Source: Minisyncoccia bacterium
Lineage (GTDB): Bacteria; Patescibacteriota; Minisyncoccia; Phycocordibacterales; CALRBL01
Direction of reading: 5' to 3'
DNA length: 64,000 bases
NCBI GenBank assembly: GCA_038230075.1
Contig: JBBRNV010000002.1
Coordinates: 62,215-126,214 of the forward strand
A model generated the notes under the pieces. The model ran no database searches, was not told where the DNA came from, and was given only the letters and a program-made list of their open reading frames with translations. The position numbers and the translations under genes were made by a program. Of this stretch, positions 1,097 through 42,102 are shown piece after piece (position 1 is the first letter of the stretch; each line of letters starts with the position of its first letter).

Positions 1097-3244
1097 ATGA
1101 ATCGAGATTATCCATTAGAAAAAGTACGTAACTTCGGAATCATTGCTCACATTGATGCGGGAAAAACAACAACATCAGAACGAATTTTGTACTACACCGG
1201 AATGTCGCACAAAATTGGAGAAGTGCACGACGGTGAAGCAACAACAGACTGGATGGAACAGGAAAAAGAGCGAGGTATTACTATTACTGCCGCCGCTATT
1301 ACTTGTTTCTGGAATCCAACATTTCGAGCAAAAGCTGACGATCTTTCAGGAATGCATCGATTCAACATCATTGACACTCCAGGTCACGTAGACTTCACCG
1401 TAGAAGTAGAAAGATCTCTAAAGGTTCTCGACGGAGGAGTGGTGGTATTCGATGGAGTGGCGGGTGTAGAACCTCAATCTGAAACTGTGTGGCGACAAGC
1501 TGATAAATATCACGTACCTCGAATCTGTTTCATCAACAAACTTGATCGAACAGGAGGATCTTTCGATCGATCATTCAAATCTATTGTTGAACGACTAAAT
1601 AAAAACGCAGTTCGAATGCAACTTCCTATTGGAGAAGAAGCAAACTTTGAAGAAATTATCGACCTTTTGAAAATGAAGGTGTATGCATTTGAAGGTGACA
1701 TGGGAAATAAGATTATCGAAAAAGAAATTCCTGAATCTCATATGGCAGACGCAGTGAAGTATCGAGCAGAGCTTGTAGAAAGAATTGTTGAACATGATGA
1801 CGCTGCGATGACAGATTTTCTTGAAGGAAAAGAAATTGCGATTGACCGATTGAAAGCGATTCTTCGAAAGGCAACTATTGCAAACAAAATCTTCCCTGTA
1901 TTTACTGGTTCAGCACTTAAGAACCGAGGAGTGCAGCTTGTACTTGATGCGGTGGTTGAATATCTTCCATCTCCACTCGACATTCCTCCAGTAAAAGGAA
2001 TCGATCCAAACACAGGTGACGAAATCTTGCGAGCTCCATCAGACTCAGAACCATTTGCTGCGCTTGCTTTCAAACTTCAGACTGACCCATTCGTAGGACA
2101 GCTTACCTTCTTCCGAGTGTACTCAGGAACAATCGAAGCTGGTTCATATATCTATAACTCAACAACAGGAAACAAAGAACGACTCGGACGAATTGTTCGA
2201 CTTCAAGCTAATAAGCGAGAAGAAGTAAAGAAAGTGTATGCCGGAGAAATTGCTGCAGCTGTGGGCTTGAAAGAAGCAAAGACTTCACACACATTCTGTG
2301 ACGAAGCACATCCAATCATTCTCGATCCAATTAAATTCGCAGAACCGGTGGTATCTCTTCGAATCGAACCTGCAACAAAAGCTGACCAAGAAAAAATGGG
2401 AATGGCGCTTAAGAAGCTTTCTGATGAAGATCCAACATTTAGAATTTCAACAAATCCAGAAACTCTTGAAACTATCATTTCAGGTATGGGAGAACTTCAT
2501 CTTGAAATCATGATCGACCGAATGAAACGAGAATTCGGAGTAACAGCAAACGTAGGAAAGCCTCAGGTAGCATATCGAGAAACAATTCTTGGTTCAGCTG
2601 AAGCGGAACACAAATATGTTAAGCAATCAGGAGGAAAAGGACAGTATGGACACGTAAAACTTACTATCAAACCTCTCGAGAAATTAGTTGAAGGAGCAAA
2701 GATTCCTAAGAACGTTAAACGATACGATGACTTCGAATTTATCGACAGTATTAAAGGAGGAGTTATTCCACAAGAATTCATTCCTGCAGTTGAAAAGGGA
2801 GTTCGAGAAGCAATGGAACGAGGAATTGTTGCTGGTTTCAGACTAGTAAATGTATCTTGTGAATTAACATTTGGTTCATATCACGATGTAGACTCATCTG
2901 AAATTGCTTACAAGATCGCAGCATCTCAGGCTTTCCAAGAAGCTGCAAAACGAGCGAAGGCCGTGATTCTAGAACCTATTATGAAAGTTGAAGTAGTTGT
3001 TCCTGAAAAGTTCATGGGAGACATCACAGGAAACCTGAACTCAAAGCGAGCACAAATTGAAGGAATGGAAGAGCGAGGAATGCTTAAGGTGATTCGAGCG
3101 ATGGTTCCACTTTCTGAAATGTTCGGATACACAACTACTCTTCGATCAATGACAGAAGGACGAGGATCAGCAACTATGGAATTTGATCACTACGATGTGG
3201 TTCCTCCACACGTTGCGACAACAATTGCTGAGGCGCGAAAATAG
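1097..3244 (+). CDS. fusA: Translation elongation factor G
   Basis: GTPase G1 motif [17 protein letters not shown] and NKLDR motifs, and full-length (715 aa) EF-G architecture. Confidence 0.97.
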
Positions 3245-3381: not shown

Positions 3382-4938
3382 ATGAATAAAATCAATGTTA
3401 AAAGCCTGGCCCAAGGGTCAGGTCCACTTCGTGTGGGAAAAGATTTGTGGGTGGGAGTGAATACACTTCCAACCAGGTTCGAGTGCATTAAGTTCGCTCG
3501 TAAGGTTGTCTCAGTTGCACAACAGCTAGAGCCTTCGCTCGCAGAGTTTCGTATGTGGCAACTTCGTAAAAGGTTTGCACTCGTGTGGATGGTTCTGACC
3601 GATCATTACGAAGTGTCGCTTTGGCAGAATCATTCCGCCGAACCTGTGTGGATGCAGGAGCTACCACTCTGTTTTCAACGCGCTGTCAGAGCAGATGTAA
3701 TTGCCTTCAAGGAATATAGAGATGGCAGAAGGCAGTTCGCGATTTGTCTCAATAATCGTTTCCATGGCTATGGAGGATACGTCGTTCTTGATGAGGGCAT
3801 CATTAATGATATGTGGATTCTTGGCATGGATCGTTTGGGAGGAATCGCTCAGTTGGCATTTCTTCATTGTCCGAACTTCGACAAGAGTAAGTCGACGGCA
3901 CATCTTCGTTTTGAACACACTCGTTTGCTTCACAGCTACGATGTGGTTGTGATCATGGAGTTACTCATTGCAAATAATCATGAAGTGCTCGGTGCACACC
4001 GAAATCTTCTGATTGCCGCAGCGTTTCTTCATGATATTTTCACGCCTGCAGGCGGAGATACGACAAAGGGAATTGACCCCGAAGCTTTCGATGAAGATGC
4101 GATGTTCCCCAAACTCTTCAAAACCGCTCGTTGGAAAGAGTTCAACCTGAAGTACAAGCTTGATGAAGTTGCTCTTGCTGAACTGATTCTTGGAAAAGGT
4201 CCTTTCGGATCTGTCCTCGATCTTGCCGACAAGAGTGCCTACATAGGAAGAGACTTTCAGGTATACCTTAGGTGGTCAATGCAGTTTGGGCCAACGAAGT
4301 ATCCAGAACTTTACACGAAGATGAATGGTTTCGCCCAAGCATATCCTGACGTTGCGTCATTGTGGCAGTATGCGAAGTATGTAGATGGAAAGGTTGTCAT
4401 CACTGACCACCAAGCTCTCTACCACTTTCTGTTGCTTCGAATGATGATGTTCAATAATCTCTACTACAGCCCGCGGGCTCGCTTTCTTGAGTACGTCGTT
4501 GGTCAAATATTGATTAAACACCTCTATGAGACCAAGAAGATTAGTGCAGAAGATTTGCTCAAAGGAAACGATTCATGGCTAGAAGAAGTTCTAGTCAGGG
4601 AGACTGGGTTTTTCCTTCCATTGTTTCAATGGGATTCAACACCTATGCAGGTTGTCGAAACAGAAGAGGAAGTTGCAGCGTTCCGAAAGTTGTATCCTCG
4701 CGAAAGTGGGATGTTGGTTATCGTTGATCGATTCAACCTTATCCCAAAACCAGCAACTGGTCGCTTCTTTGTGGAAAAGGATGGAGTTGTTCTTCCGTTC
4801 AATGAAGCATACCCCGAACTGGCGGCGCATGTTGAAGCCGAAGGTGAAATGAAAGTTCAGATCGCGTGTTACGCTGTTCGACTTGAAGACATGCGTCTTA
4901 AACCGGAAATAGTTGAAGTCATCGAGAGGCTCGCATAG
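3382..4938 (+). CDS. HD-domain phosphohydrolase, SAMHD1/dGTPase-like (dNTP triphosphohydrolase family), divergent
   Basis: Three motifs in SAMHD1-like order and spacing: H..RFEHTRLL, then AAFLHDIFTPAGGD (the HD motif), then DLADKSAYIGRDF. The gene lies in a GC-rich island whose codon usage (GC3-rich, CGT/CGC/AGG) is unlike the rest of the window. Confidence 0.6.
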   Translation: MNKINVKSLAQGSGPLRVGKDLWVGVNTLPTRFECIKFARKVVSVAQQLEPSLAEFRMWQLRKRFALVWMVLTDHYEVSLWQNHSAEPVWMQELPLCFQRAVRADVIAFKEYRDGRRQFAICLNNRFHGYGGYVVLDEGIINDMWILGMDRLGGIAQLAFLHCPNFDKSKSTAHLRFEHTRLLHSYDVVVIMELLIANNHEVLGAHRNLLIAAAFLHDIFTPAGGDTTKGIDPEAFDEDAMFPKLFKTARWKEFNLKYKLDEVALAELILGKGPFGSVLDLADKSAYIGRDFQVYLRWSMQFGPTKYPELYTKMNGFAQAYPDVASLWQYAKYVDGKVVITDHQALYHFLLLRMMMFNNLYYSPRARFLEYVVGQILIKHLYETKKISAEDLLKGNDSWLEEVLVRETGFFLPLFQWDSTPMQVVETEEEVAAFRKLYPRESGMLVIVDRFNLIPKPATGRFFVEKDGVVLPFNEAYPELAAHVEAEGEMKVQIACYAVRLEDMRLKPEIVEVIERLA

Positions 4939-5043
4939 TTCAATTCTAGCGGGCCTTTTCTCATGGGAAAATTTTACTAGTAAATATATAAAAAGAATCG
5001 CCGCGGGCACCGGTGGGTGCGCGCGGCAATGATTCTGCTCGAC

Positions 5044-5271
5044 TCAGACGATTTTTGGTGTGGCCAAGTCTGGCAACAGGTCGGCTTCCCGCGGGATGAT
5101 GGCTTCTTCCGCCATCGGGAATTCGAACACTTGGCGATCGTGACCGGTGTCGCTGGTGGAGCGGTGACAGGTTCCACCGGAACACTCTTTGATGACATAG
5201 TCAGGAGTGCCGTCACTTCGGAGGAACCGACGATACTCGGCTGGAGGTGGTGGAGGAAGGTGCGCGTTCAT
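5044..5271 (-). CDS. Small hypothetical protein (75 aa) inside the GC-rich island, convergent with the HD protein
   Basis: The ORF shows GC3-rich codon usage matching the island. The region has overlapping ORFs in several frames, so the call is uncertain. It contains a Cys/His cluster (CSGGTCHRSTSDTGHD). Confidence 0.25.
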   Translation of the reverse strand: MNAHLPPPPPAEYRRFLRSDGTPDYVIKECSGGTCHRSTSDTGHDRQVFEFPMAEEAIIPREADLLPDLATPKIV

Positions 5272-5425
5272 GGGAGGGGCAGCGTGGGTGAACCGGATGA
5301 ATCCAGGGAACGATGTGAGTTTTGTTCCAATAAAATAATGCCATAGTTTTTACTATTTATCAAACTCTCATAAAACTAATGGCAATCAGATATTTTCACG
5401 TGGTATTATATGAACATCATAGTTC

Positions 5426-5803
5426 ATGAATTCAATTACTGCACAATATATTGCGTGGCATTATAAAGATGGGTACAAAGATTTAAAAAACTTTTGTAAA
5501 ACCATACTTTCCTTCGTTGTCTACTTTTTTTCGGTAAAAACTCTTCTACAAACTTTTTTTCAACCATGGCGGCGAATTATGGAAAGAGGTCAGAAGGGAA
5601 AGATGTTTTCAATACTTCAAGGTTTTGTTGTGACAACACTGATGCGAATCATTGGAGTTATTATTCGAATAATAATGCTTGTTGTTGCTTTGGTTGCTCT
5701 GATTATTTCGTGCGTCATTGCACTTGTTTCTCTTATTGTTTGGCCTTTGTTGCCAATTCTTCTCGTTCTCATTTTTATTGATGGAGTTCTTCATTTTGTA
5801 TAA
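5426..5803 (+). CDS. Hypothetical small integral membrane protein (125 aa)
   Basis: Two to three strongly hydrophobic helices at the C-terminus. The stop at 5803 is followed 5 nt later by the ATG of the AAA+ gene, suggesting translational coupling. Confidence 0.45.
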   Translation: MNSITAQYIAWHYKDGYKDLKNFCKTILSFVVYFFSVKTLLQTFFQPWRRIMERGQKGKMFSILQGFVVTTLMRIIGVIIRIIMLVVALVALIISCVIALVSLIVWPLLPILLVLIFIDGVLHFV

Positions 5804-5807
5804 ATAT

Positions 5808-8189
5808 ATGAGAAATAATTTTTTTGATCAGACATATAATAAGATAGATCGACTTGAATCAACATTTTCTCATGCAAAACGTAGAAAATTGCGAAAGGCA
5901 TTTTTAATCTTGACGCTACTTGCTACGGTCGCTTCTGTTTATCCAGACTATAGAAATCAATCGACTGGTCTCATATTTATTTTTGGAAGCATATATGGCT
6001 TCTTTTCACTTGTTGAAGCTTTTTTCTACTCAGTGTTTAATAAAATTAAAGAGGAAAAAAAGTCGTTTGCAACTCTTTCTTCTATTTCAGGTAATCAATA
6101 TAAGGGAATAATCTTTCACGTTAGTAAGTCTTTTTTCGGCTCTCTTCTTCTTTATAGATTGGGAATCATTAATGATGTTGCATCAGACATGACTGCAATT
6201 GTTACCGAAGAAACGTTGATGGGGAATGAAAGCACTTTGTCTGAACATGTTGATATTACCGCAACAACGAATTTGGGAGCTTTGATGTTTTCTTTATCCA
6301 AAGTTTCACCAACATTTAAAAATATTTTAGAAAAGCACGCAACTACACTTCAGCAACTAACTCATGCAGCTTCTTGGCTTGAACGACTATACATAAAAGA
6401 AATAGAGAGAGAAAAGTGGTGGAGTGAACAAAACCTTTTTAAGACGCAACCTTTTGCGAGTGATTGGGCATATGGCCAAACTGACACGCTCGAGAAGTAT
6501 GGTAGTTTCATTCCTTCTGAATATTCTGGTGCAGAGTCATATCAAGGAGAAATAAATAAGATTGAACTTGTTCTCTCAAAACCAACATCTCCTTATGCTC
6601 TTGTTATTGGTGAAAGCGAAACAGGAACATTAACCTTGATTCAAGGCTTGGCAGGAAGAATTTCTGAAACTCATGATAAGCATGCTGCGCTCCACGGAAA
6701 AAGAATTTTTATGTTGAATACATCGCATCTTTTTCAGATAGTAAAAAATGGTCAAGATTTTGAAGCCACTTTCTCAGGTGTGTTATTCGAAGCAGAACGA
6801 GTTGGTAATGTTGTTTTTGCTATCGACAACTTCAGTCTCTTTATTGAATCAGCCCAATCTCTTGGAGTTGATGGAATCATGCTTCTTGTTTCATGCCTTC
6901 GAGTATCTTCAATGCCACTCATTGTACTCGCCGATACCCACTTATATTTTCAAAAGATTCAGAAACACACAGAGTTGTCGCAATATTTCGAAGTTGTACA
7001 AACATCTATCAAAGATAAAGAATCTCTTCTTTTCTATATTCAAGACCATGTTCTACAAGTTGAAGGAATGTATGAAGTGACATTTCTTTATCAAACCCTT
7101 GAAGTGATTGCAGAATCTGCTGAACGATATTTTGAAGGAGAAGCACTTCGTGAGAAAGCACTCGATTTATTAATTGAAGTTGCAGAAGTAGTAAAAGCAG
7201 AAAAAGGAAGGGTGGTGACAACTGAAAATGTACTATCACTCATTAAACAAAAAACAGGAATCCCAACAGGACAAATTAATGAAGAAGAAAAAGAAAAACT
7301 TCTTAACCTCGAAAGCTTGTTGCATCAAAAGGTGATTGGGCAGAATGAAGCTATTGTTTCAATTGCTAATGCCCTTCGACGTTCTCGAAGTGGTATTGGA
7401 AAACATAATAAACCAATTGGGTCATTTCTGTTTCTTGGTCCAACAGGAGTAGGAAAAACAGAAACAACTAAAGCACTCAGCGATATTTTCTTTGGGGAAA
7501 AGGCTCCCATGGTTCGATTCGATATGTCTGAATACTCGGGCGCCGATGGACTTGCTCGACTGATTGGTCAAAATAATTCTTCAGGATTATTGGCAGATGC
7601 TATTCGAGAAAGACACTACGGAGTACTACTTCTTGATGAATTTGAGAAAGCTTCGAAAGAAGTTCATAATCTTTTTCTACAAATTTTAGACGAAGGATTT
7701 TTCTCTGATTCAACAGGAAAGCATGTGAACTTACGAAATATGATTATTGTTGCAACATCAAATGCGGGAAGTGCTTTCATTATTTCTCAAACAGGAGAAG
7801 ATCTTCAAAAAAACAAACCAGACATCATTAATCAAATTATTTCTCAGGGAATTTTTAGACCAGAACTTTTGAATCGTTTTGACGGAGTTATTTTATTTGA
7901 ATCCCTCAATCAAGAACAGGTTGGAAAAGTAATTCAACTAATGCTTAAAGACCTCTCTCATCGTCTTGAAGAAAAGGGTGTTGAAATTCTTGTGACCGAT
8001 GAATTAGTTCAATATCTTATGTCACATGGAACTGATGCGCGATTTGGAGCACGACCACTTAACCGATTAATTGCAGATGTTATCGAAGAAAAGATTGCAG
8101 AAGGTTTAATTTCTGGAAATATCATGAGTGGTGCAAAAGTCTCATTTGTACAGAACGAACAAGGTGCACTTGATATAAAACAGATGTAG
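5808..8189 (+). CDS. Membrane-anchored ClpA/ClpB-family AAA+ ATPase with a degenerate first nucleotide-binding domain (D1) and an intact second (D2)
   Basis: The C-terminal half aligns to the Clp D2 domain: Walker A GPTGVGKTE, Walker B LLLDEFEKA, sensor-1 ATSNAG, and a GARPLNR sensor-2/ClpB_D2-small region. The region corresponding to D1 has Walker A replaced by GESETGTL (no Lys) and Walker B replaced by FAIDNFS. The N-terminus has two predicted TM helices and no Clp_N repeats. An alternative upstream ATG at 5718 overlaps the preceding ORF. Confidence 0.75.
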   Translation: MRNNFFDQTYNKIDRLESTFSHAKRRKLRKAFLILTLLATVASVYPDYRNQSTGLIFIFGSIYGFFSLVEAFFYSVFNKIKEEKKSFATLSSISGNQYKGIIFHVSKSFFGSLLLYRLGIINDVASDMTAIVTEETLMGNESTLSEHVDITATTNLGALMFSLSKVSPTFKNILEKHATTLQQLTHAASWLERLYIKEIEREKWWSEQNLFKTQPFASDWAYGQTDTLEKYGSFIPSEYSGAESYQGEINKIELVLSKPTSPYALVIGESETGTLTLIQGLAGRISETHDKHAALHGKRIFMLNTSHLFQIVKNGQDFEATFSGVLFEAERVGNVVFAIDNFSLFIESAQSLGVDGIMLLVSCLRVSSMPLIVLADTHLYFQKIQKHTELSQYFEVVQTSIKDKESLLFYIQDHVLQVEGMYEVTFLYQTLEVIAESAERYFEGEALREKALDLLIEVAEVVKAEKGRVVTTENVLSLIKQKTGIPTGQINEEEKEKLLNLESLLHQKVIGQNEAIVSIANALRRSRSGIGKHNKPIGSFLFLGPTGVGKTETTKALSDIFFGEKAPMVRFDMSEYSGADGLARLIGQNNSSGLLADAIRERHYGVLLLDEFEKASKEVHNLFLQILDEGFFSDSTGKHVNLRNMIIVATSNAGSAFIISQTGEDLQKNKPDIINQIISQGIFRPELLNRFDGVILFESLNQEQVGKVIQLMLKDLSHRLEEKGVEILVTDELVQYLMSHGTDARFGARPLNRLIADVIEEKIAEGLISGNIMSGAKVSFVQNEQGALDIKQM

Positions 8190-8197
8190 TCTACAAT

Positions 8198-9493
8198 TTG
8201 GTCATGTCATTTTCTATTGAAATTCTGTACGAAGATTTTAAAAACTCAGCAGGAGTTTGTATCGACAGTCGAAACATAAAAGACAATCAACTATTTTTTG
8301 CATTGAAAGGTGAACGTGTTGATGGAAATTCTTTTGTTGAAGAAGCGCTAAAAAAGAATGTGATTAAAGTAGTTATGAGTAATGAAGATGTGTATAAGAA
8401 TTTGTCACACGACGTAAAGGACAAAGTGTTCCTCGTAAAGGACACTCTTACAATACTTCAAGAACTAGCCATATTTCATCGAAAAACATTTTCAATTCCA
8501 GTTATTGCTATCGGAGGATCTAATGGAAAAACCACTACTAAAGAATTGCTTCGTGAAGTATTGTCGAAAAAATATAAAGTCTATGCGACAGAAGGGAATT
8601 TAAATAATGATGTCGGACTTCCGTTAAGTATTCTCCGAATTACAAAAGACATTGAGATTGCGGTTATTGAACTCGGCGCAAACCACATAGGAGAAATTGC
8701 AAACCTATGTCTCATTGCACAACCTACACATGGTCTCATTACGAATATCGGTAAAGCACACATTGGTGAGTTTGGATCACTCGATGGAGTTCTCAAAGGA
8801 GAGGGTGAGTTGTTCGATTATCTATCAGAACATAACGGCTCATATTTTTTAAATGAAGAAGATATTCGATTAGTTAAGAAAACTCAAAACAAGCCCCAGA
8901 TCATAAAAGCAACATATAACCGAAGTTTGGCTGATGGTATTGAAAACGAGCTTCCTGGTGAACACAACAAACAAAATATGGCTGCAGCTCTTGTTGTTGG
9001 TCGTTTTTTCGGGGTAGATGAGGTACTTATAAAAGAGGCTATTTCTGCATATAAACCAACACTCGGTCGTTCAGAATGGAAATTATGGCTCAGCAACAAG
9101 GTTTTTTACGATGCTTACAATGCCAATCCTTCAAGTATGGCTGTTGCTCTCGAAACGTTTGTTTCGCTTAAAAACCTTGAAAAATGGCCCAAAATGGCTA
9201 TTTTAGGAGATATGAAAGAGCTTGGAACGTATACTACAACTGAACATGCAACTGTTGTTGAGCAAGTAGAAGCATATATAGAACAAGGAAAGCTTCAGAA
9301 AGCTATATTTGTAGGCTTAGATTTTGAAAATGTTGCTAAAAGTATGGAAACTGATTGCGAAACAACCTTATTTTTCAGCACCCTTGAAGATCTTAAATTT
9401 TATTTTGATAAACTAGGTTATCCAAAAGGTGAGACTATTTTTATGAAAGGAAGTCGAGGAATGAAACTAGAGACTATTTTAAATTGGAACTAG
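8198..9493 (+). CDS. murF: UDP-N-acetylmuramoyl-tripeptide--D-alanyl-D-alanine ligase
   Basis: Mur ligase motifs GGSNGKTTTKE and GNLNNDVGLPLSIL, and a C-terminal domain with GSRGMKLE. Confidence 0.9.
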   Translation: MVMSFSIEILYEDFKNSAGVCIDSRNIKDNQLFFALKGERVDGNSFVEEALKKNVIKVVMSNEDVYKNLSHDVKDKVFLVKDTLTILQELAIFHRKTFSIPVIAIGGSNGKTTTKELLREVLSKKYKVYATEGNLNNDVGLPLSILRITKDIEIAVIELGANHIGEIANLCLIAQPTHGLITNIGKAHIGEFGSLDGVLKGEGELFDYLSEHNGSYFLNEEDIRLVKKTQNKPQIIKATYNRSLADGIENELPGEHNKQNMAAALVVGRFFGVDEVLIKEAISAYKPTLGRSEWKLWLSNKVFYDAYNANPSSMAVALETFVSLKNLEKWPKMAILGDMKELGTYTTTEHATVVEQVEAYIEQGKLQKAIFVGLDFENVAKSMETDCETTLFFSTLEDLKFYFDKLGYPKGETIFMKGSRGMKLETILNWN

Positions 9494-9729: not shown

Positions 9730-10920
9730 ATGGCAGATTTTGATCGTTCAAAGCCTCACGTAAACGTGGGAACAATTGGTCACGTTGACCACGGTAAGAC
9801 AACTCTTACTGCGGCTATTCTTAATGTACTTTCACGAGCTGGAAAGATGGCAACTATTAAAGCAGTTGATCAAATTGACAAAGCTCCTGAAGAAAAAGCA
9901 CGAGGAATCACTATTTCTCTTTCACACAACGAATATGCTACTGATGCACGTCACTACGCGCACATCGATGCCCCAGGTCACGCTGACTACATCAAGAACA
10001 TGATTACAGGAGCTGCTCAGATGGACGGCGCTATTCTTGTAGTAGCCGCTACTGACGGTCCTATGCCTCAGACACGAGAACACGTTCTTTTGGCAAAGCA
10101 GGTGGGTGTGCCAAAGATCATTGTATTTCTAAACAAGTGCGACATGGTTGATGACAACGATCTTATTGATCTTGTTGAAGCAGAATGTCGAGAACTTCTT
10201 ACAAAGAATGGTTTTGATGGAGACAATGCTCCTGTAATTCGAGGTTCAGCTCTTAAAGCTCTTGAAGCAACAGACAACACAGATGAATGGTCAAAGAAAG
10301 TTCTTGAGCTTGCCGACGCTCTTGATTCATACATCCCAATCCCAATTCGAGAAACTGACAAGCCTTTCCTTATGCCAGTAGAAGACATCTTCTCAATTGA
10401 AGGACGAGGAACAGTAGTAACAGGACGAATCGAACGAGGAATTATCAAAGTAGGTGAAGAAGTTGAAGTTGTTGGTCTTAAAGACACTGCAAAAACAGTT
10501 GTTACAGGAATCGAAATGTTCAACAAATCACTTAACGAAGGTCAGGCTGGAGACAATGCCGGTATTCTTGTACGAGGTCTAAAGAAAGAAGACATCACAC
10601 GAGGACAGGTTCTCTCAAAGCCAGGATCAGTAAAGCCTCACACAGATTTCGAAGCAGAAGTATACATTCTTAAGAAAGAAGAAGGAGGACGACACACTCC
10701 ATTCTTCACAGGATACAAGCCTCAGTTCTACGTGCGAACAACAGACGTTACTGGAGAAGTATCATTGGCTGAAGGTGTAGAAATGGTTATGCCTGGAGAC
10801 ACTGTTACTTTCAAAGTTAAGCTCGTAGCCCCAATTGCTCTTGAAGAAAAGATGCGATTAGCTATTCGAGAAGGAGGAAAGACAGTAGGTGCTGGAGTTG
10901 TTACTAAGATTGTTGCCTAA
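9730..10920 (+). CDS. tuf: Translation elongation factor Tu
   Basis: [18 protein letters not shown] and NKCD motifs in a 396-aa protein. Confidence 0.97.
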
Positions 10921-23630: not shown

Positions 23631-26498
23631 ATGGAACAAAGTTTTTCACAAAACAAAGAACTTTTCTCTTCTCCTGAAGAAGAACTTGCATATTTGCGCG
23701 AGCGAGTTCAAAAACAAGAACAAGTATTGAAACAAAAAGGTGAGAATCCTGATCGAGAAGAGTTGATCATGAAAGAGTTGAAAGAATACACACAATCAAT
23801 TCCTGAAAAAACTTTAGCTAAGGGCTTTCAAATGATAGAGCCACATCAACAAGCCATTGTTCTCGATCTTATTCCTGAAACACATGATGATAAGATGTCA
23901 GAACTTCTTGGGCTTCTTCATGATAAAGGTTTTCTCAACACATTGTCTGTTGTTGAAAAGTTGGGTAATCCTCATATTGAATCCGATTTTCATCGGTTTC
24001 TAGTTGAATATATTAAGAAAGGATTTGAAGTAAAGGGAGCAAGTGAGAAATCTCCAATCTACAAAGCACTTCGACACACTCTATATGAAGTGTCGCTTCC
24101 TCGTCCAAAAAAAGAAGAAAAAGAACGGCAGTTGAAAGAAGTTATTTCAAGTATGGAACAGTTCTACGCAGGAATGCTTTCAGTTTCAACTGAAGCAGAG
24201 AGAAACACTGAAAACTTTTTTTCAATTGAACTGGCTATTTCAAATGACAGTCAAGAATTTGTTTTCTACGCTTCAGTTCCTGATAGTAAAACTAACCTGT
24301 TTGAAAAACAGCTTCTTTCTGTTTTTGCAGGAGCAAAGATTGTTGAAAAGAAAGATGATTACAATGTGTTTAATGCAGAGGGAATTACTGTTGCATCAGT
24401 TGCCAAACAAAAGAATAAACCAATTTTTCCAATCAAAACCTATGAGCAGTTTGACTATGATCCATTAAATATTGTTTTGAACACTCTTTCAAAGATTGAT
24501 AAGTCGGGGGAAGGAGCGTCTATTCAATTGGTCATCAATCCGTCTGGCGACTACTACCTTAAACCTTTTAAAAATGCACTAGAACAGATTCATAAGGGAG
24601 TGAAAGTGAAAGACGCAATCGATACTCCGTTCACTGCTGGTCAATTAATGAAAAAAGAGTTGAAAGAAATTGGTAAAACAATGTTTGATGAAGTGTTTAA
24701 GCGAAAAGATGACAAGAAAAAAGACGAAGAAAAATTTGAGAAAAAAGGGGTAAAGCCAGAAGATCAAAAAGTACTCGAGCAAATTGAGCAGAAAATATCT
24801 TCGCCAGTTACTGCTGTTAACATTCGTATTGTTGCGTCAGCTCCAAGTAGACATCGTGCAGAAGAAATTCTTTCAGATATTGAGTCTTCATTTAATCAGT
24901 TTGAAAACACTACGGGAAATGCTTTATCTTTTGATCGAGTTTCAGAGAAAGACCTTTCAAAAACAGTTCGAAATTTCTCATTTAGAATGTTCGACGATAG
25001 CCAAGCCCTTCCTATGAATTTGCGTGAAATTAGCTCTATTCTGCACTTCCCAGGCCAGTCTATTGTTGAAGGTGGACAATTGAAGCAAAGTAAGGCGAGT
25101 ACAGCTCCAGCGCCCCTTGATGCGCCTCGAGAAGGGGTCTATTTGGGTGTTAATAAGCACCGAAATCAAGAAGTTCCTATTTATATGACTCCTGAAGATC
25201 GACTTCGACACTTCTACGTTATTGGTCAAACAGGAACTGGAAAGACTACTCTTTTGAAAGACATGATTATTCAAGATATTAAGAATGGGGAAGGTGTCTG
25301 CTTTATCGATCCACACGGATCAGACGTGCAAGATATTTTGGCCCATATTCCACCTGAACGATTCGAAGATGTTATTTATTTCGATCCAAGTTATATTCCA
25401 CGGCCGATGGGAATGAATATGCTTGAATACGATCCTGCATATCCTGAGCAAAAAACATTCGTGGTAAATGAACTCTTTTCTATTTTTGATAAGTTGTTTG
25501 ACATGAAGACGACCGGAGGCCCAATGTTTGAACAATATTTTAGAAACTCAACAATGCTCGTGCTTGAAGATCCAGAATCAGGAAACACACTTCTTGATGT
25601 ATCTCGCGTGCTTTCAAATAAAGCATATCGAGAATTAAAAATTTCACGATGTAAGAATCCTATTGTTGTGCAGTTTTGGAAAGAAGTTGCTGAGAAGGCA
25701 GGAGGGGAATCATCACTTGCAAACATTGTTCCTTACATCACAAGTAAGTTTGATGTGTTTTTGGCAAACGATATTATGCGACCGCTTATTGCTCAAGAAA
25801 AATCGTCATTTGATTTCAGAAAGATTATGGATGAAAAGAAAATCTTACTTGTTAATCTTTCAAAAGGAAGATTGGGTGACATTAACGCTAACTTAATTGG
25901 TCTTATTTTGGTTGGAAAGATTTTGATGGCAGCACTTTCACGAGTAGATTCAATGGCTAAAGGTTTTCCTCCTTTCTATTTATATATCGATGAGTTCCAA
26001 AATGTGACCACAAATTCTATTTCAGTTATTTTGTCTGAAGCTCGAAAATATAAACTCTCACTTCATATCGCTCATCAATTTATTGCACAACTTAAAGAAG
26101 ATATTCGAGATGCCGTGTTTGGAAACGTTGGATCAATTGTTTCGTATCGAGTTGGTGCAGACGACGCTGAATATTTACAGAAACAATTTGAACCAGTTTT
26201 TACTTCAAACGATATTATGAATCTCGATAACCTGAACGCCTATTCACGACTTCTTATAAATGGCCGACCTGCTCGTCCTTTCAACATTACTGTGCCATTT
26301 CCTCCTGTGGTTGATAAATCTCACGTGCAGCCGTTGAAAGAACTTTCATATTTAAAATATGGAGGAGATAGAGAAGAGATTGAAGAAATGGTCATGAAGA
26401 AATATCGAAAAGAACCACCTCCAGCTCCTGCGCCATCACCGTTTCCTGCGGCAGAATCTCAACTTAAAAAGGCACTTAATCCATTCCTTGAGGTCTAA
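23631..26498 (+). CDS. FtsK/HerA-superfamily ATPase of the VirD4/TraD/TrwB (type IV coupling protein)-like family, soluble, with a roughly 500-aa N-terminal domain of unknown function
   Basis: Walker A GQTGTGKTT is followed immediately by CFIDPHGSD (the DP.G motif seen in TrwB/TraD and HerA). Walker B is LYIDEFQN, and the arginine-finger region is SEARKYKLSLHIAHQF. No TM segments are predicted. Confidence 0.7.
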   Translation: MEQSFSQNKELFSSPEEELAYLRERVQKQEQVLKQKGENPDREELIMKELKEYTQSIPEKTLAKGFQMIEPHQQAIVLDLIPETHDDKMSELLGLLHDKGFLNTLSVVEKLGNPHIESDFHRFLVEYIKKGFEVKGASEKSPIYKALRHTLYEVSLPRPKKEEKERQLKEVISSMEQFYAGMLSVSTEAERNTENFFSIELAISNDSQEFVFYASVPDSKTNLFEKQLLSVFAGAKIVEKKDDYNVFNAEGITVASVAKQKNKPIFPIKTYEQFDYDPLNIVLNTLSKIDKSGEGASIQLVINPSGDYYLKPFKNALEQIHKGVKVKDAIDTPFTAGQLMKKELKEIGKTMFDEVFKRKDDKKKDEEKFEKKGVKPEDQKVLEQIEQKISSPVTAVNIRIVASAPSRHRAEEILSDIESSFNQFENTTGNALSFDRVSEKDLSKTVRNFSFRMFDDSQALPMNLREISSILHFPGQSIVEGGQLKQSKASTAPAPLDAPREGVYLGVNKHRNQEVPIYMTPEDRLRHFYVIGQTGTGKTTLLKDMIIQDIKNGEGVCFIDPHGSDVQDILAHIPPERFEDVIYFDPSYIPRPMGMNMLEYDPAYPEQKTFVVNELFSIFDKLFDMKTTGGPMFEQYFRNSTMLVLEDPESGNTLLDVSRVLSNKAYRELKISRCKNPIVVQFWKEVAEKAGGESSLANIVPYITSKFDVFLANDIMRPLIAQEKSSFDFRKIMDEKKILLVNLSKGRLGDINANLIGLILVGKILMAALSRVDSMAKGFPPFYLYIDEFQNVTTNSISVILSEARKYKLSLHIAHQFIAQLKEDIRDAVFGNVGSIVSYRVGADDAEYLQKQFEPVFTSNDIMNLDNLNAYSRLLINGRPARPFNITVPFPPVVDKSHVQPLKELSYLKYGGDREEIEEMVMKKYRKEPPPAPAPSPFPAAESQLKKALNPFLEV

Positions 26499-40092: not shown

Positions 40093-42102
40093 ATGAACAA
40101 TCCCGACATCACATATTTCGCTCAAACAGACTCACGAAGTAGTCGGATTCCGTTCGGAATTAAATCTAAAGACAGAGCAAAGCATACCTATATCATTGGA
40201 AAGACTGGAATGGGTAAGTCGACAGTGCTTGAAAACATGACCATTCAAGATATTCAGAATGGCAATGGAGTTGCATTTCTTGATCCTCACGGAAAGACTG
40301 CAGACCTTTTTCTCGAATATGTTCCTGAACATCGAAAGAAAGATGTAATCTATTTCGCTCCGTTCGATATGGATCACCCTATCTCGTTCAATGTGCTCGA
40401 AGATGTTGGTCCAGATAAACGTCACTTGGTAACCAGTGGTCTTATGTCTGCTTTCAAAAAAATCTGGGTAGATGCATGGAGTGCTCGAATGGAATACATT
40501 TTAAATAATATTTTACTGGCACTTCTTGAATATCCTGGTTCAACTCTTATTGGGGTAAACCGAATGCTTGCCGATAAAGATTATCGAAAGAAAGTAGTTG
40601 ATAACATTAAAGACCCTTCAGTAAAGGCATTTTGGGTTGACGAATTTGCAAAATACGGAGATCGATATATGCAGGAAGCTGGAGCTTCAATTCAAAATAA
40701 AATCGGGCAATTCGTGTCTAATCCACTTGTTCGAAATATTATTGGTCAGCCGAAATCTACATTCGATCTTCGAAAGATTATGGATGATAAGAAAATTCTC
40801 ATCATCAACCTTTCGAAAGGAAGAATGGGAGAAACCAACGCCAATCTTATTGGAAGTATGTTGATCACAAAAATATATCTCGCTGCAATGTCGCGAGCTG
40901 ATTCAACAGAGTCTGTGCTGTCAAAACTTCCTCCATTTTATTTATATGTAGACGAATTTCAAAACTTCGCCAACGAATCATTTGCAGACATCCTTTCAGA
41001 AGCTCGAAAATATAAACTATGCTTAACAGTAGCCCATCAATACATTGAGCAAATGTCAGACGAAGTACGAGCCGCTGTGTTTGGAAACGTTGGAACCATG
41101 ATTACTTTTCGAGTGGGAGCGTATGATGCTGAAGTTCTTGAAAAAGAATTTGCACCACAGTTTACCGCTGAAGATTTAGTTAATCTTGGACGATTTCAAA
41201 TTTATTTAAAGTTGATGATTGATGAAGTGAGTTCGTCACCATTTTCTGCAACGACACTCCCTCAAATTGAAAAACCCATCATTTCATTTACTAATGAAAT
41301 TATTGAAAATTCTCGAGCAATGTATGCACGGCCTCGTCCTATTGTTGAACAAGAAATTAAAGATTGGCACGAAGATGGTGTGAAAAGAGACGAAACTTCT
41401 GGTGGAGGTAGAGGGCAAACAGGCGAACGAAGAAGTGTGTCAGCTGGATACGGTGGAGGGGCGCCCGGAGCACAATCAATTGCACCACGAAAGTTTGATC
41501 GACAAGCGGTTCCTCAAAACCTTGCTGCAAAACTTCCATCAATGACAACGCTTGCTCAAAACATGAGAAGCGAAGAACGCCAACGAGTAGATAGACAAAG
41601 TTCAGGACAAATGTCGACTCAGGGTTACAGCGCTCAACGTACTTCTGGTGGCTCATCAAGTTCATCTGCTGGTTTGCCTCCTCGAAGAATGCCTACAAAT
41701 GATAGTCCGTCAGTTTCAGAAATGGCCGCAGTACCTCAGTCAGTATCTCTTAATCATCTTAAGAATCCGCCACAAGAAAAATCTGCGAATACTCAAAAAG
41801 TGGCTACACCAGAACATATTTCAGAACTTCGAAATGCACTCAAAGCATTTATGAAGCCAGGCGCTCCAGTTGAAGAGGTTAAACAAGAATCTGTTACTGC
41901 AGAAAAACCAACAGAAGATAAAAAGGAAGAAGTGCTCAAAGAACATAATAAAGAAACAACTCACGCGCATGCTGCTCATAAACATTCCACAGAAAAGAAA
42001 GATGATGAGTCTGTTCATCACAAGAAACACACAAAAGAAGTGCCCAAAGAAGTGCTGATGGAAATTCTAGGAAATGAAGAGCAAGACTCGCTTAATGCAT
42101 AG
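40093..42102 (+). CDS. Second VirD4/TraD/TrwB-like FtsK/HerA-superfamily ATPase, paralogous to 23631..26498, with a roughly 250-aa disordered acidic/basic C-terminal tail
   Basis: Walker A GKTGMGKST, then AFLDPHGKT, Walker B LYVDEFQN, and SEARKYKLCLTVAHQY. The core aligns closely with the first copy over long stretches (SKGR.G..NANLIG ... FGNVG...FRVGA.DAE.L.K.F.P.FT..D..NL). Confidence 0.7.
   Translation: MNNPDITYFAQTDSRSSRIPFGIKSKDRAKHTYIIGKTGMGKSTVLENMTIQDIQNGNGVAFLDPHGKTADLFLEYVPEHRKKDVIYFAPFDMDHPISFNVLEDVGPDKRHLVTSGLMSAFKKIWVDAWSARMEYILNNILLALLEYPGSTLIGVNRMLADKDYRKKVVDNIKDPSVKAFWVDEFAKYGDRYMQEAGASIQNKIGQFVSNPLVRNIIGQPKSTFDLRKIMDDKKILIINLSKGRMGETNANLIGSMLITKIYLAAMSRADSTESVLSKLPPFYLYVDEFQNFANESFADILSEARKYKLCLTVAHQYIEQMSDEVRAAVFGNVGTMITFRVGAYDAEVLEKEFAPQFTAEDLVNLGRFQIYLKLMIDEVSSSPFSATTLPQIEKPIISFTNEIIENSRAMYARPRPIVEQEIKDWHEDGVKRDETSGGGRGQTGERRSVSAGYGGGAPGAQSIAPRKFDRQAVPQNLAAKLPSMTTLAQNMRSEERQRVDRQSSGQMSTQGYSAQRTSGGSSSSSAGLPPRRMPTNDSPSVSEMAAVPQSVSLNHLKNPPQEKSANTQKVATPEHISELRNALKAFMKPGAPVEEVKQESVTAEKPTEDKKEEVLKEHNKETTHAHAAHKHSTEKKDDESVHHKKHTKEVPKEVLMEILGNEEQDSLNA

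What the first reader, a model, noticed from the sequence alone, without database searches (positions are those of the whole stretch)
5426..8189. Membrane-anchored ClpA-like double-ring AAA+ protein with a dead D1 ATPase, coupled to a small membrane protein
The D2 half is a textbook Clp ATPase, with Walker A/B, sensor 1/2 and the ClpB_D2-small region all present. The D1-equivalent region retains the fold-level sequence flow but has lost the Walker A Lys (GESETGTL) and the Walker B Asp-Glu (AIDNFS). Instead of Clp_N repeats, the N-terminus has two TM helices. Immediately upstream, with stop and start 5 nt apart, lies a 125-aa polytopic membrane protein. This sits in the non-syntenic stretch between fusA and tuf. 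A membrane-tethered unfoldase with one pseudo-ATPase ring is not a standard Clp architecture. It could be a dedicated membrane-protein extraction or secretion chaperone.
Basis: seen in the sequence. Interest (0 to 1): 0.6.

Follow-up and report, generated by a model that had tools for sequence, protein, structure and literature searches.

The report
Membrane-anchored Hsp100 ATPase with small partner
This is an intact two-gene module found widely in the ultra-small Patescibacteria (CPR): a Clp/Hsp100-type motor protein anchored in the membrane, with one dead and one live ATPase ring, always encoded next to a small orphan membrane protein, and nobody has yet worked out what it does.

Summary
The core observation holds. 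Window 5808-8189 encodes an intact 793-aa two-tier Clp/Hsp100 protein. Window 5426-5803 encodes a 125-aa polytopic membrane protein that ends 4 nt before it.

D1 keeps the AAA+ fold but has lost Walker A Lys/Thr, the Walker B Glu, the pore-loop Tyr and the Arg finger. D2 keeps every catalytic motif.

Two corrections:
- **D2.** It is not fully textbook. Its pore loop is shortened and has no aromatic residue in this protein.

This is not a one-off. At least 150 clusters at 50% identity share the architecture, and all named members are Patescibacteria. D1 Walker A is intact in 1 of 127 and D2 in 127 of 127. The small gene lies directly upstream in 68 of 70 testable loci, and three natural fusions exist. 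An FtsQ-like gene is adjacent in 29 of 57 loci, and peptidoglycan genes recur nearby.

A probable orthologous pair in cultivated Southlakia is non-essential, with a late growth defect, and coexists with canonical ClpC and ClpP.

Best reading: a ClpP-independent, D2-driven membrane-tethered remodeller or extractor working with its small partner, possibly on envelope or division proteins. It is a new variant of a known kind, and its function is untested.

The parts
5426..5803 (+). Gene for the 125-aa small polytopic membrane protein, the partner of the ATPase. It belongs to an orphan family with invariant W11, P47, R74, G77, R81, W106 and P110.
   Evidence: ORF. Hydrophobic segments. 66 homologues of 109-179 aa (most about 125-135 aa) with no Pfam, NCBIfam or PDB relative. 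Directly upstream of the ATPase gene in 68 of 70 loci.
5808..8189 (+). Gene for the 793-aa membrane-anchored two-tier Clp/Hsp100-like AAA+ protein. The real start is ATG 5808, not the TTG at 5718 that heads the mechanical ORF.
   Evidence: Homologue N-termini align to M at 5808. AF2 model has mean pLDDT 87.2. Foldseek best hits are ClpC, ClpB and ClpA protomers, E about 1e-42.
5898..6038 (+). Transmembrane hairpin. The hydrophobic cores are residues 31-45 and 54-77, joined by the short loop PDYRNQSTG. Lys/Arg-rich flanks predict both ends in the cytoplasm.
   Evidence: Hydropathy. Helices H22-42 and H46-82 at pLDDT 89-97. Two hydrophobic segments are seen in most relatives checked.
6057..6410 (+). 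Diverged Clp_N-like N-terminal domain of eight helices, residues 84-201.
6411..6548 (+). Family-specific linker carrying the conserved WW...DWAYGxT..L motif, residues 202-247.
   Evidence: W205, L210, G223 and L228 are each conserved in at least 120 of 127 relatives. Consensus.
6549..7217 (+). D1 pseudo-ATPase module, residues 248-470. It holds the degenerate Walker A GESETGTL (6609-6632), the degenerate Walker B VVFAIDN (6810-6830), and the pore loop KNGQ in place of KYRG (6744-6755).
   Evidence: Alignment to ClpB D1 and to the ClpA model. Coordinates checked. Family counts: GxxxxGK[ST] in 1 of 127 and Walker B DE in 5 of 127.
7308..7898 (+). D2 active AAA+ module, residues 501-697. It holds Walker A GPTGVGKT (7437-7460), the shortened pore loop IGQNNSSGL (7563-7589), Walker B LLLDE (7626-7640), sensor 1 TSNAG (7755-7769) and the Arg-finger motif PELLNRFD (7860-7883).
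   Evidence: Pfam AAA_2 E 5.3e-40. ClpB alignment. Coordinates. Walker A G[PST]TGVGKT and Walker B DE are kept in 127 of 127.
7905..8144 (+). ClpB_D2-small lid domain, residues 700-779, with sensor 2 GARPL at 8046-8060.
   Evidence: Pfam PF10431 E 1.1e-20. Coordinates.

Best explanation
The two genes encode a conserved Patescibacteria-specific membrane machine.

**ATPase.** It is a class-I Clp/Hsp100 derivative. From the N-terminus it has an amphipathic helix, a TM hairpin, a diverged Clp_N domain, a WW/DWAYG linker, D1, D2 and the D2-small lid.

**Assembly (inferred by homology).** It forms a hexamer on the cytoplasmic face of the membrane. D1 is a catalytically dead scaffold ring. D2 is the only motor.

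**What it lacks.** It has no M domain, so no DnaK coupling. It has no ClpP-docking loop, so it is not a protease partner.

**Partner.** The small polytopic protein is its obligate membrane partner. It probably packs against the TM hairpin.

**Geometry.** The anchor is N-terminal, so the N-domain/D1 entry face points at the bilayer.

**Most likely activity.** ATP-driven extraction, disassembly or remodelling of membrane-embedded or membrane-associated proteins, pulled towards the cytoplasm. Gene neighbourhoods point, weakly, to divisome and peptidoglycan-synthesis components as clients.

**Shown:** architecture, motif states, family-wide conservation, gene pairing, fusions.

**Inferred:** hexamer, complex formation, direction of action, client class.
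For: - **Architecture and motifs:**
- **Family-wide pattern in 127 full-length representatives:** D1 Walker A is intact in 1, D1 Walker B DE in 5, D2 Walker A and DE in 127, and a ClpP-like tripeptide appears in 2 by chance.
- **Domain divergence:** D1 mean pairwise identity is 32% against 57% for D2, as expected for a retained but non-catalytic ring.
- **Family size:** at least 150 clusters at 50% identity cover the whole N-terminal profile at E < 1e-90. Every named member is Patescibacteria.
- **Pairing:** the small gene is directly upstream in 68 of 70 loci whose 5' side is present. The paired loci fall into 67 clusters at 80% identity, with median identity 38%. The reverse look-up from small-protein hits also finds the ATPase downstream.
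- **Fusions:** the small protein is fused to the ATPase in L083, P0257 and P0261.
- **Neighbourhood:** an FtsQ-like gene is adjacent in 29 of 57 loci and present in 33 of 57. D,D-carboxypeptidase is at +1 in 8 of 61 and YkuD in 3 of 61. FtsEX-CHAP-CtpB, MraZ-RsmH-FtsI and murF in this window also occur.
- **Southlakia epibionticum:** the probable ortholog pair SEML1_0701/0700 has identical Tn-seq calls (NE, NE, GD). It sits back to back with murT/gatD. The genome also has canonical ClpC and ClpP, so this protein is a specialised extra paralogue there (PMC10633639 Tables S1 and S2).
Against: - Neither ring has an aromatic pore-loop residue in this protein, and 50 of 127 relatives have none in the D2 loop. 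Processive threading is therefore not assured.
- The neighbourhood signal is diluted. The commonest block is SerRS, FtsQ-like, small gene, ATPase, (DacA), Dus, which mixes unrelated housekeeping genes. In this window there is no FtsQ-like gene at all.
- No hexamer or complex model could be computed.
- The Southlakia orthology rests on architecture and gene order, not on a sequence comparison. The phenotype there is mild.
Confidence: 0.45

Rival explanations
1. It is a non-threading ATP-driven switch. The D2 ring cycles nucleotide to gate, assemble or regulate the small membrane protein, which could be a channel, a transporter-like oligomer or a lipid-binding scaffold. No polypeptide is translocated.
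For: The pore loops are degenerate: D1 has KNGQ and D2 has a 6-residue deletion that removes GYVG. 50 of 127 relatives have no aromatic residue in the D2 loop. The 1:1 gene pairing is strict and fusions exist. The small protein has invariant intramembrane Arg, Gly and Pro residues, as a functional rather than merely anchoring protein would.
Against: 77 of 127 relatives keep an aromatic residue (mostly GSF) in the D2 loop. The Clp_N-like domain and the whole Hsp100 chassis are retained, which is usual for substrate-handling machines. No known function or fold is available for the small protein.
Confidence: 0.2
2. It is a general membrane-proximal disaggregase or quality-control chaperone, a ClpB substitute. 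It has no specific tie to division or cell-wall proteins.
For: D2 is most similar to ClpB (TIGR03346 366 bits; the best PDB hits are ClpB) and there is no ClpP loop. An HSP20 gene lies two genes upstream in L011.
Against: There is no M domain, so the DnaK coupling that ClpB disaggregation needs is missing (alignment jumps from ClpB 403 to 527). D1 is dead and the pore-loop Tyr residues are absent. It has an obligate membrane partner. Canonical ClpC and ClpP coexist in Southlakia.
Confidence: 0.15
3. It is a protein-export motor. The hexamer would push unfolded substrates through a pore formed by the small protein, as Plasmodium HSP101 feeds EXP2 in PTEX.
Confidence: 0.08
4. It is an anti-phage defence ATPase of the Dodola DolB type or a related type.
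For: The PADLOC DolB model matches residues 484-768 at E 8e-42.
Against: The match covers only the generic D2. The small protein matches no PADLOC model. The pair sits in conserved housekeeping synteny across very divergent genomes (SerRS, FtsQ, Dus), not in variable islands. It is classed as a core family in Southlakia.
Confidence: 0.03
5. It is an artefact: a frameshifted or decaying Clp gene whose N-terminal part belongs to another gene.
For: Only the degenerate D1 motifs.
Against: The ORF is continuous. It has full-length collinear homologues down to 26% identity. The same D1 state occurs across 127 representatives. The AF2 model is confident.
Confidence: 0.02

Closest known systems
ClpA (class-I Hsp100, E. 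coli)
   Same: Same domain order N, D1, D2 with no M domain. One contiguous alignment covers residues 248-779 against the ClpA model. Foldseek matches ClpA protomers.
   Different: It has no IGL ClpP-docking loop, a dead D1 and no pore-loop Tyr residues, and it adds a TM hairpin. Its score of 330 bits is far below the ClpA cut-off of 993.
ClpB/Hsp104 disaggregases
   Same: D2 and D2-small are most similar to ClpB (268.6 bits for the D2 stretch). It is independent of ClpP.
   Different: It has no coiled-coil M domain. D1 is inactive and the D2 pore loop is shortened. It is membrane-anchored. It scores 366 bits against the ClpB cut-off of 1232.
Pex1/Pex6 with Pex15/Pex26 (peroxisomal AAA+ exportomer)
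   Same: By analogy only: a two-tier AAA+ with a catalytically inactive D1 ring and an active D2 ring, held at a membrane through a small membrane protein, and pulling a client out of the membrane. This rests on established knowledge (review PMC6862443 listed, not read here).
   Different: It belongs to a different AAA+ clade (classic AAA, not Hsp100). Pex1/Pex6 has no TM segment of its own. It is eukaryotic.
Msp1/ATAD1 and FtsH (N-terminally anchored AAA+ extractors)
   Same: An N-terminal TM anchor places the pore entrance at the membrane surface. This geometry is used for extracting membrane proteins.
   Different: They have a single AAA ring and intact aromatic pore loops. FtsH carries a protease domain. 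No homology beyond the AAA+ core was tested here.
Human CLPB/Skd3
   Same: It is an Hsp100 that works with a D2-type module only and has an N-terminal hydrophobic stretch (papers PMC7343390 and PMC10818064 listed). It matches D2 at E about 1e-22.
   Different: Skd3 has ankyrin repeats instead of Clp_N plus D1. It keeps the GYVG pore loop. It is soluble after processing.
Dodola DolB (PADLOC)
   Same: It shares a ClpB-like D2 module (E 8e-42).
   Different: There is no DolA partner and no defence-island context. The N-terminal two thirds are unrelated.

Membership tests
Clp/Hsp100 class I (two AAA+ modules) | D2 AAA_2 module with Walker A/B, sensor 1, Arg finger and sensor 2, plus the ClpB_D2-small lid | tested here: met
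   Pfam AAA_2 5e-40 and PF10431 1e-20. Motifs read. Walker A and Walker B DE are kept in 127 of 127 relatives.
Clp/Hsp100 class I (two AAA+ modules) | D1 AAA+ module with catalytic Walker A GxxxxGK[ST] and Walker B hhhhDE | tested here: not met
   The fold is present, but the motifs read GESETGTL and VVFAIDN. In the family, Walker A is intact in 1 of 127 and Walker B DE in 5 of 127.
Clp/Hsp100 class I (two AAA+ modules) | N-terminal double Clp_N repeat domain | tested here: met
Clp/Hsp100 class I (two AAA+ modules) | Aromatic pore-loop residues (KYR in D1, GYVG in D2) | tested here: not met
   D1 has KNGQ. The D2 loop is shortened to GQNNSSG. An aromatic residue is present in the D2 loop of 77 of 127 relatives.
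ClpA / ClpC / ClpE / ClpX (ClpP-binding unfoldases) | Surface loop with the [ILV]G[FL] tripeptide that docks on ClpP | tested here: not met
   None is found between sensor 1 and the Arg finger. Only 2 of 127 relatives show a chance match. The ClpA NCBIfam score is 330 against a cut-off of 993.
ClpB / Hsp104 | Coiled-coil M domain inserted in the D1 small domain, needed for DnaK/Hsp70 coupling | tested here: not met
   The alignment to ClpB skips residues 404-526. The model shows no long coiled coil there. The ClpB NCBIfam score is 366 against a cut-off of 1232.
FtsH | Single AAA module followed by an M41 zinc-protease domain | tested here: not met
   No Peptidase_M41 hit. The protein has two AAA+ tiers of Hsp100 type.
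Dodola defence system (DolA + DolB) | DolB ATPase encoded with DolA in a defence context | tested here: not met
   Only D2 matches DolB. Neither the small partner nor the upstream 518-aa protein matches any PADLOC model. The synteny is housekeeping.
Proposed new family: Patescibacteria membrane-anchored Hsp100 plus small partner | TM hairpin, then Clp_N-like domain, WW/DWAYG linker, dead D1 and live D2, with the small WHY...PW[KR]R membrane-protein gene immediately upstream | tested here: met
   The window protein scores 879 bits on the family HMM. The window small protein scores 130 bits on the partner HMM. Architecture. Pairing.
Proposed new family: Patescibacteria membrane-anchored Hsp100 plus small partner | Physical complex between the two proteins, and hexamer formation | not testable with these tools
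   Only indirect support exists: conserved adjacency, start/stop coupling and three fusions. No multimer modelling was available.

The most novel reading that the evidence does not exclude
The pair, often together with the FtsQ-like protein encoded just upstream, is a Patescibacteria-specific envelope machine. A D2-only Hsp100 hexamer is docked on a ring of the small Arg-bearing membrane protein. It extracts or recycles divisome or peptidoglycan-synthesis membrane components, or their lipid-linked complexes, at the division site. If so, it would be a lineage-defining solution to membrane-protein turnover in these minimal cells, and the first membrane-integral Hsp100.
Probability: 0.25. Interest if true: 0.8.

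Novelty: new variant of a known kind. Interest (0 to 1): 0.6.

Why it matters
**For the Hsp100 field.** Hsp100/Clp proteins are among the best-studied molecular machines. To my knowledge none of the described classes (ClpA, B, C, D, E, L, V, K/G) is membrane-integral, none has a constitutively dead D1, and none has an obligate membrane partner. A family with all three features shows that the Hsp100 chassis was repurposed as a membrane machine. It is also conserved across a radiation that makes up a large share of bacterial diversity.

**As a natural experiment.** It tests what a pseudo-ATPase ring contributes, and whether aromatic pore loops are dispensable.

**For Patescibacteria biology.** It adds a conserved, tractable candidate to the poorly understood envelope and division apparatus. 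Mutants already exist in the Southlakia Tn-seq library.

Tried and rejected
- **The search for related loci, 9-sequence N-terminal alignment.** It failed because no stretch was conserved enough.
- **The search for related loci, 3-sequence alignment on genome contigs.** It returned only 3 loci, one of them an ordinary ClpA.
- **Second word-indexed protein search with the N-terminal profile.** It added only one new member. The exhaustive representative search was needed to see the family's size.
- **Small partner.** The Pfam, NCBIfam and PDB profile searches found nothing.
- **Literature.** Searches for a membrane-anchored Clp/Hsp100 in CPR found no description of this family.
- **Rfam and tRNA scans of the window.** Both were empty.
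- **Frameshift or pseudogene.** Considered and rejected: the ORF is continuous and has collinear homologues.
- **Defence system.** Considered and rejected: the D2 match is generic and the synteny is housekeeping.
- **TTG 5718 as the start.** Considered and rejected: it overlaps the upstream gene by 86 nt, and homologues align to ATG 5808.
- **Sole Hsp100 of these organisms.** Considered and rejected, at least for Saccharibacteria, where ClpC and ClpP coexist. This could not be checked for the window's own genome, since only 64 kb are visible and hold no other Clp gene.
Full report
**1. What is in the window**

The mechanical ORF list shows two same-strand genes between fusA and tuf. The first is 5426-5803 (125 aa). 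The second is an ORF that ends at 8189.

fusA is 1097-3244 and has the EF-G motif AHIDAGKTT. tuf is 9730-10920 and has GHVDHGKTT.

The listed TTG start at 5718 overlaps the first gene. Homologues align to the ATG at 5808, four bases (ATAT) after the TAA stop at 5801-5803. The product is therefore 793 aa. It is uninterrupted and collinear with full-length relatives; P0002 is 44% identical over 99% of the length.

The other genes in the fusA-tuf gap are:
- a 518-aa protein with only a weak HD-domain hit (3382-4938);
- murF (8198-9493; TIGR01143, 345 bits).

**2. Anatomy of the large protein**

*Database matches.*
- Pfam detects AAA_2 at residues 535-692 (E 5e-40) and ClpB_D2-small at 700-779 (E 1e-20). 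It finds only a sub-threshold AAA_lid_9 at 419-495, no D1 AAA domain and no Clp_N.
- The NCBIfam ClpA model aligns in one piece to residues 248-779. ClpB, ClpG, ClpK and ClpV models match mainly D2. All scores are far below their cut-offs: ClpB 366 against 1232, and ClpA 330 against 993.

*D1 against solved ClpB.* D1 aligns to residues 186-403 of ClpB (39 bits, E 3e-9).

| Element | ClpB | This protein |
|---|---|---|
| Walker A | GEPGVGKT | GESETGTL |
| Walker B | ILFIDELH | VVFAIDNFS |
| Pore loop | KYRG | KNGQ |

*M domain.* The alignment then jumps to ClpB residue 527. The coiled-coil M domain is therefore absent, as in ClpA.

*D2.* It keeps GPTGVGKT, LLLDEFE, TSNAG, PELLNRFD and GARPL. 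Its pore loop is six residues shorter than ClpB's GAPPGYVGYEEGG. It reads GQNNSSG, with no aromatic residue.

*ClpP loop.* No [ILV]G[FL] ClpP-docking tripeptide lies between sensor 1 and the Arg finger.

*Structure model.* An AlphaFold2 model built on a 43-sequence alignment is confident (mean pLDDT 87.2, pTM 0.77). It shows:
- an N-terminal helix (residues 2-19);
- two long helices (22-42 and 46-82) that contain the hydrophobic cores;
- an eight-helix domain (87-201);
- two alpha/beta AAA+ modules.

Foldseek against the PDB returns ClpC, ClpB and ClpA protomers (E about 1e-42).

*Membrane hairpin.* Hydropathy analysis and Lys/Arg-rich flanks (HAKRRKLRK before TM1, NKIKEEKK after TM2) support an in-out-in hairpin, so the ATPase is cytoplasmic.

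**3. The N-terminal domain is a diverged Clp_N**

I modelled residues 84-250 alone (pLDDT 72).
- Foldseek found nothing significant, although about ten of the 30 weak hits were Clp N domains.
- Profile-profile comparison with canonical Clp_N gave P 2.4e-4 and probability 44%.

The membrane hairpin is therefore added in front of a retained, sequence-degenerate Clp_N domain. It does not replace that domain.

Between the Clp_N-like domain and D1 lies a family-specific linker. It carries the conserved WW...DWAYGxT..L motif.

**4. A large, lineage-wide family**

*Size and taxonomy.*
- An exhaustive profile search with the N-terminal 470 residues found at least 150 representatives (50% identity clusters) that cover the whole profile at E < 1e-90.
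- Every member that carries a taxon label is Patescibacteria: Pacebacteria, Wildermuthbacteria, Saccharibacteria, Taylorbacteria, Parcubacteria or 'Patescibacteria group'.

*Motif states in 127 full-length representatives.*
- D1 Walker A GxxxxGK[ST] is intact in 1. GK survives in 38, but the Mg-binding Ser/Thr is replaced by Met or Leu.
- D1 Walker B DE is present in 5.
- The D1 pore-loop Tyr is absent.
- An Arg at the D1 Arg-finger position is kept in 41.
- D2 Walker A and DE are intact in 127 of 127.
- The shortened D2 pore loop is a family trait, with consensus GSFxxGxxG. 77 of 127 have an aromatic residue somewhere in the loop and 50 of 127 have none, including this protein.

*Divergence.* Mean pairwise identity is 57% in the D2 large domain and 32% in D1. 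This is consistent with a retained but non-catalytic ring.

**5. The small protein is an obligate genomic partner**

- It has about 3-4 hydrophobic segments. It has a conserved N-terminal Y..WHY motif, a PW[KR]R motif followed by a basic loop, and invariant R74, G77, R81, W106 and P110.
- It has 66 detectable homologues, most about 125-135 aa, all annotated as hypothetical. It has no Pfam, NCBIfam or PDB relative.
- I retrieved 80 metagenomic loci with D2 patterns specific to the family (LLLDEFEK, LFLQI[LI]DE). With the earlier loci, 70 have the 5' side of the ATPase gene on the contig. 68 of these have the small gene directly upstream on the same strand. The 68 fall into 67 clusters at 80% identity, with median pairwise identity 38%.
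- Starting instead from small-protein hits, the ATPase is found downstream each time.
- One of the two exceptions (L083) is a fusion. There the small protein replaces the hairpin at the N-terminus of the ATPase. In the other (L066), the small gene lies 663 nt upstream.
- Two further representatives (P0257, P0261) carry the small protein fused in front of the complete ATPase.
- These fusions require the C-terminus of the small protein to be cytoplasmic. That matches the predicted topology of the ATPase.

**6. Genomic context**

- An HMM built from the FtsQ-like proteins (POTRA_1/FtsQ_DivIB_C) finds such a gene immediately upstream of the pair in 29 of 57 loci, and within the locus in 33 of 57.
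- Seryl-tRNA synthetase is at position -2 in about 24 of 53 loci.
- At +1 are Dus (12 of 61), D,D-carboxypeptidase S11 (8 of 61) and YkuD (3 of 61). There are also single cases of M23, LysM, PAP2, polysaccharide deacetylase and MraZ. Dus is at +2 in 9 of 54.
- Individual loci place the pair before FtsE-FtsX-CHAP-CtpB or before MraZ-RsmH-(FtsL)-FtsI. Others place it near a PBP or before murF, as in this window.

The envelope and division theme recurs. However, the commonest block also holds unrelated housekeeping genes, so guilt by association is only moderate. The window itself has no FtsQ-like ORF.

**7. Experimental hint from a cultivated relative**

The source is the Tn-seq study of Southlakia epibionticum (PMC10633639, Tables S1 and S2).
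- SEML1_0701 is a hypothetical protein of 127 aa.
- It overlaps the start of SEML1_0700, an 860-aa 'AAA family ATPase'. SEML1_0700 has AAA_2 at 544-706 and D2-small at 713-792, only weak D1 AAA hits, and no Clp_N by Pfam.
- Both genes receive the calls NE, NE, GD, and their read counts fall over passages.
- They are divergent from murT/gatD.
- The same genome has a canonical ClpC (SEML1_0512, with two Clp_N repeats and UVR) and ClpP (SEML1_0493).

Orthology to the window pair is inferred from architecture and gene order only. I could not compare sequences. If it holds, the module is dispensable in laboratory co-culture but contributes to fitness, and it is an extra specialised paralogue rather than the cell's only Hsp100.

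**8. Mechanism**

*Shown:*
- a two-tier Hsp100 chassis with a dead D1 and a complete D2;
- an N-terminal membrane hairpin;
- a retained Clp_N-like domain;
- no M domain and no ClpP loop;
- an obligate small membrane partner.

*Inferred from what is established for Hsp100 proteins:*
- It forms a hexamer.
- D1 acts as an assembly and scaffold ring, as inactive rings do in NSF and Pex1/Pex6.
- D2 is the motor.
- The anchor precedes the N domain by only about five residues, so the N-domain/D1 face is pressed against the membrane. Hsp100 rings move substrate from D1 to D2. Any translocation would therefore pull material out of the membrane into the cytoplasm.
- This favours extraction or disassembly (as with FtsH, Msp1 and Pex1/Pex6) over export (as with PTEX).

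*Caveat.* The missing pore-loop aromatic residues are a real problem for the threading model. They keep a non-threading 'ATP-driven switch acting on the small protein' model alive.

*Confidence by layer:*

| Claim | Confidence |
|---|---|
| Architecture | about 0.9 |
| Functional or physical coupling to the small protein | about 0.8 |
| Membrane-protein remodelling or extraction | about 0.45 |
| Specific link to division or peptidoglycan machinery | about 0.25-0.3 |

**9. Comparison with known families, and novelty**

It works most like the N-terminally anchored extractors (FtsH, Msp1) and like Pex1/Pex6 with Pex15/26. By descent it is a Clp/Hsp100 protein.

It fails defining tests for each named class:
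- ClpA/ClpC: no ClpP loop;
- ClpB: no M domain;
- canonical class I in general: no catalytic D1 and no pore-loop Tyr residues.

The PADLOC DolB match covers only the generic D2.

Three literature searches found no description of a membrane-integral Hsp100 or of this CPR family. Databases label members only as 'AAA family ATPase' or generically as ClpA/ClpC.

I rate it a new variant of a known kind: real, widespread, uncharacterised, and experimentally approachable.

Noticed in passing
window 4995-5310: A stretch of about 300 nt has 56-64% GC in a neighbourhood of 27-45% GC. It lies between the HD-like gene and the small membrane gene. It has no Rfam, tRNA or Pfam match. The RNA folding z-score is only about -2 on both strands. 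It carries overlapping ORFs on both strands, for example 5044-5271 (-), 75 aa. It could be a structured RNA, a gene remnant or foreign DNA.
   Followed up: partly
window 3382-4938: A 518-aa protein has only a sub-threshold HD/HDIG hit, and its GC (45-46%) is higher than that of its neighbours. Together with the pair and murF it interrupts the usual fusA-tuf adjacency. In relatives the pair sits elsewhere, so this placement is specific to this lineage.
   Followed up: partly
L083 4402-6807; proteins P0257 and P0261: These are natural fusions of the small membrane protein to the ATPase. In L083 the small protein replaces the TM hairpin. In P0257 and P0261 it precedes the complete ATPase. Each is known from a single contig, so read-through caused by a sequencing error cannot be excluded.
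   Followed up: partly
L001, L004, L005, L007 and 25 further loci (upstream of the pair): A diverged FtsQ-like (POTRA) gene lies immediately upstream of the pair in 29 of 57 loci. It is usually preceded by seryl-tRNA synthetase and followed, after the pair, by a D,D-carboxypeptidase and/or Dus. In these loci FtsQ is not next to ftsA/ftsZ.
   Followed up: partly
window 7563-7589, and the same column in 127 relatives: The D2 pore loop is shortened across the family (GAPPGYVGYEEGG becomes GSFxxGxxG). 50 of 127 members, including this one, have no aromatic residue in it. That is unusual for an Hsp100 motor ring whose other catalytic motifs are all intact.
   Followed up: yes
window 23631-26498 and 40093-42102: A 955-aa protein has a DUF87/HerA-type ATPase hit, and a 669-aa protein has a TrwB/T4SS coupling-protein hit. 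Together they may represent a type IV secretion or conjugation-like system of the kind recently discussed for Patescibacteria (bioRxiv 10.1101/2025.01.22.634366, title seen).
   Followed up: no
window 56839-59283 and 60119-62680: An 814-aa Wzy_C (O-antigen ligase-like) protein with C-terminal TPR repeats lies next to SecA.
   Followed up: no
L009 6255-8501, compared with L010 1387-3756: L009 carries the ATPase gene broken into several short ORFs beside an intact small gene. A sister contig with the identical small protein has the ATPase gene intact. This is most likely assembly or sequencing error rather than decay.
   Followed up: no
Southlakia epibionticum SEML1_0700/0701 (PMC10633639 Tables S1 and S2): A probable ortholog pair in a cultivated Saccharibacterium is non-essential with a growth-defect call at the last passage. 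It lies divergent from murT/gatD. Canonical ClpC (SEML1_0512) and ClpP (SEML1_0493) are present in the same genome.
   Followed up: partly
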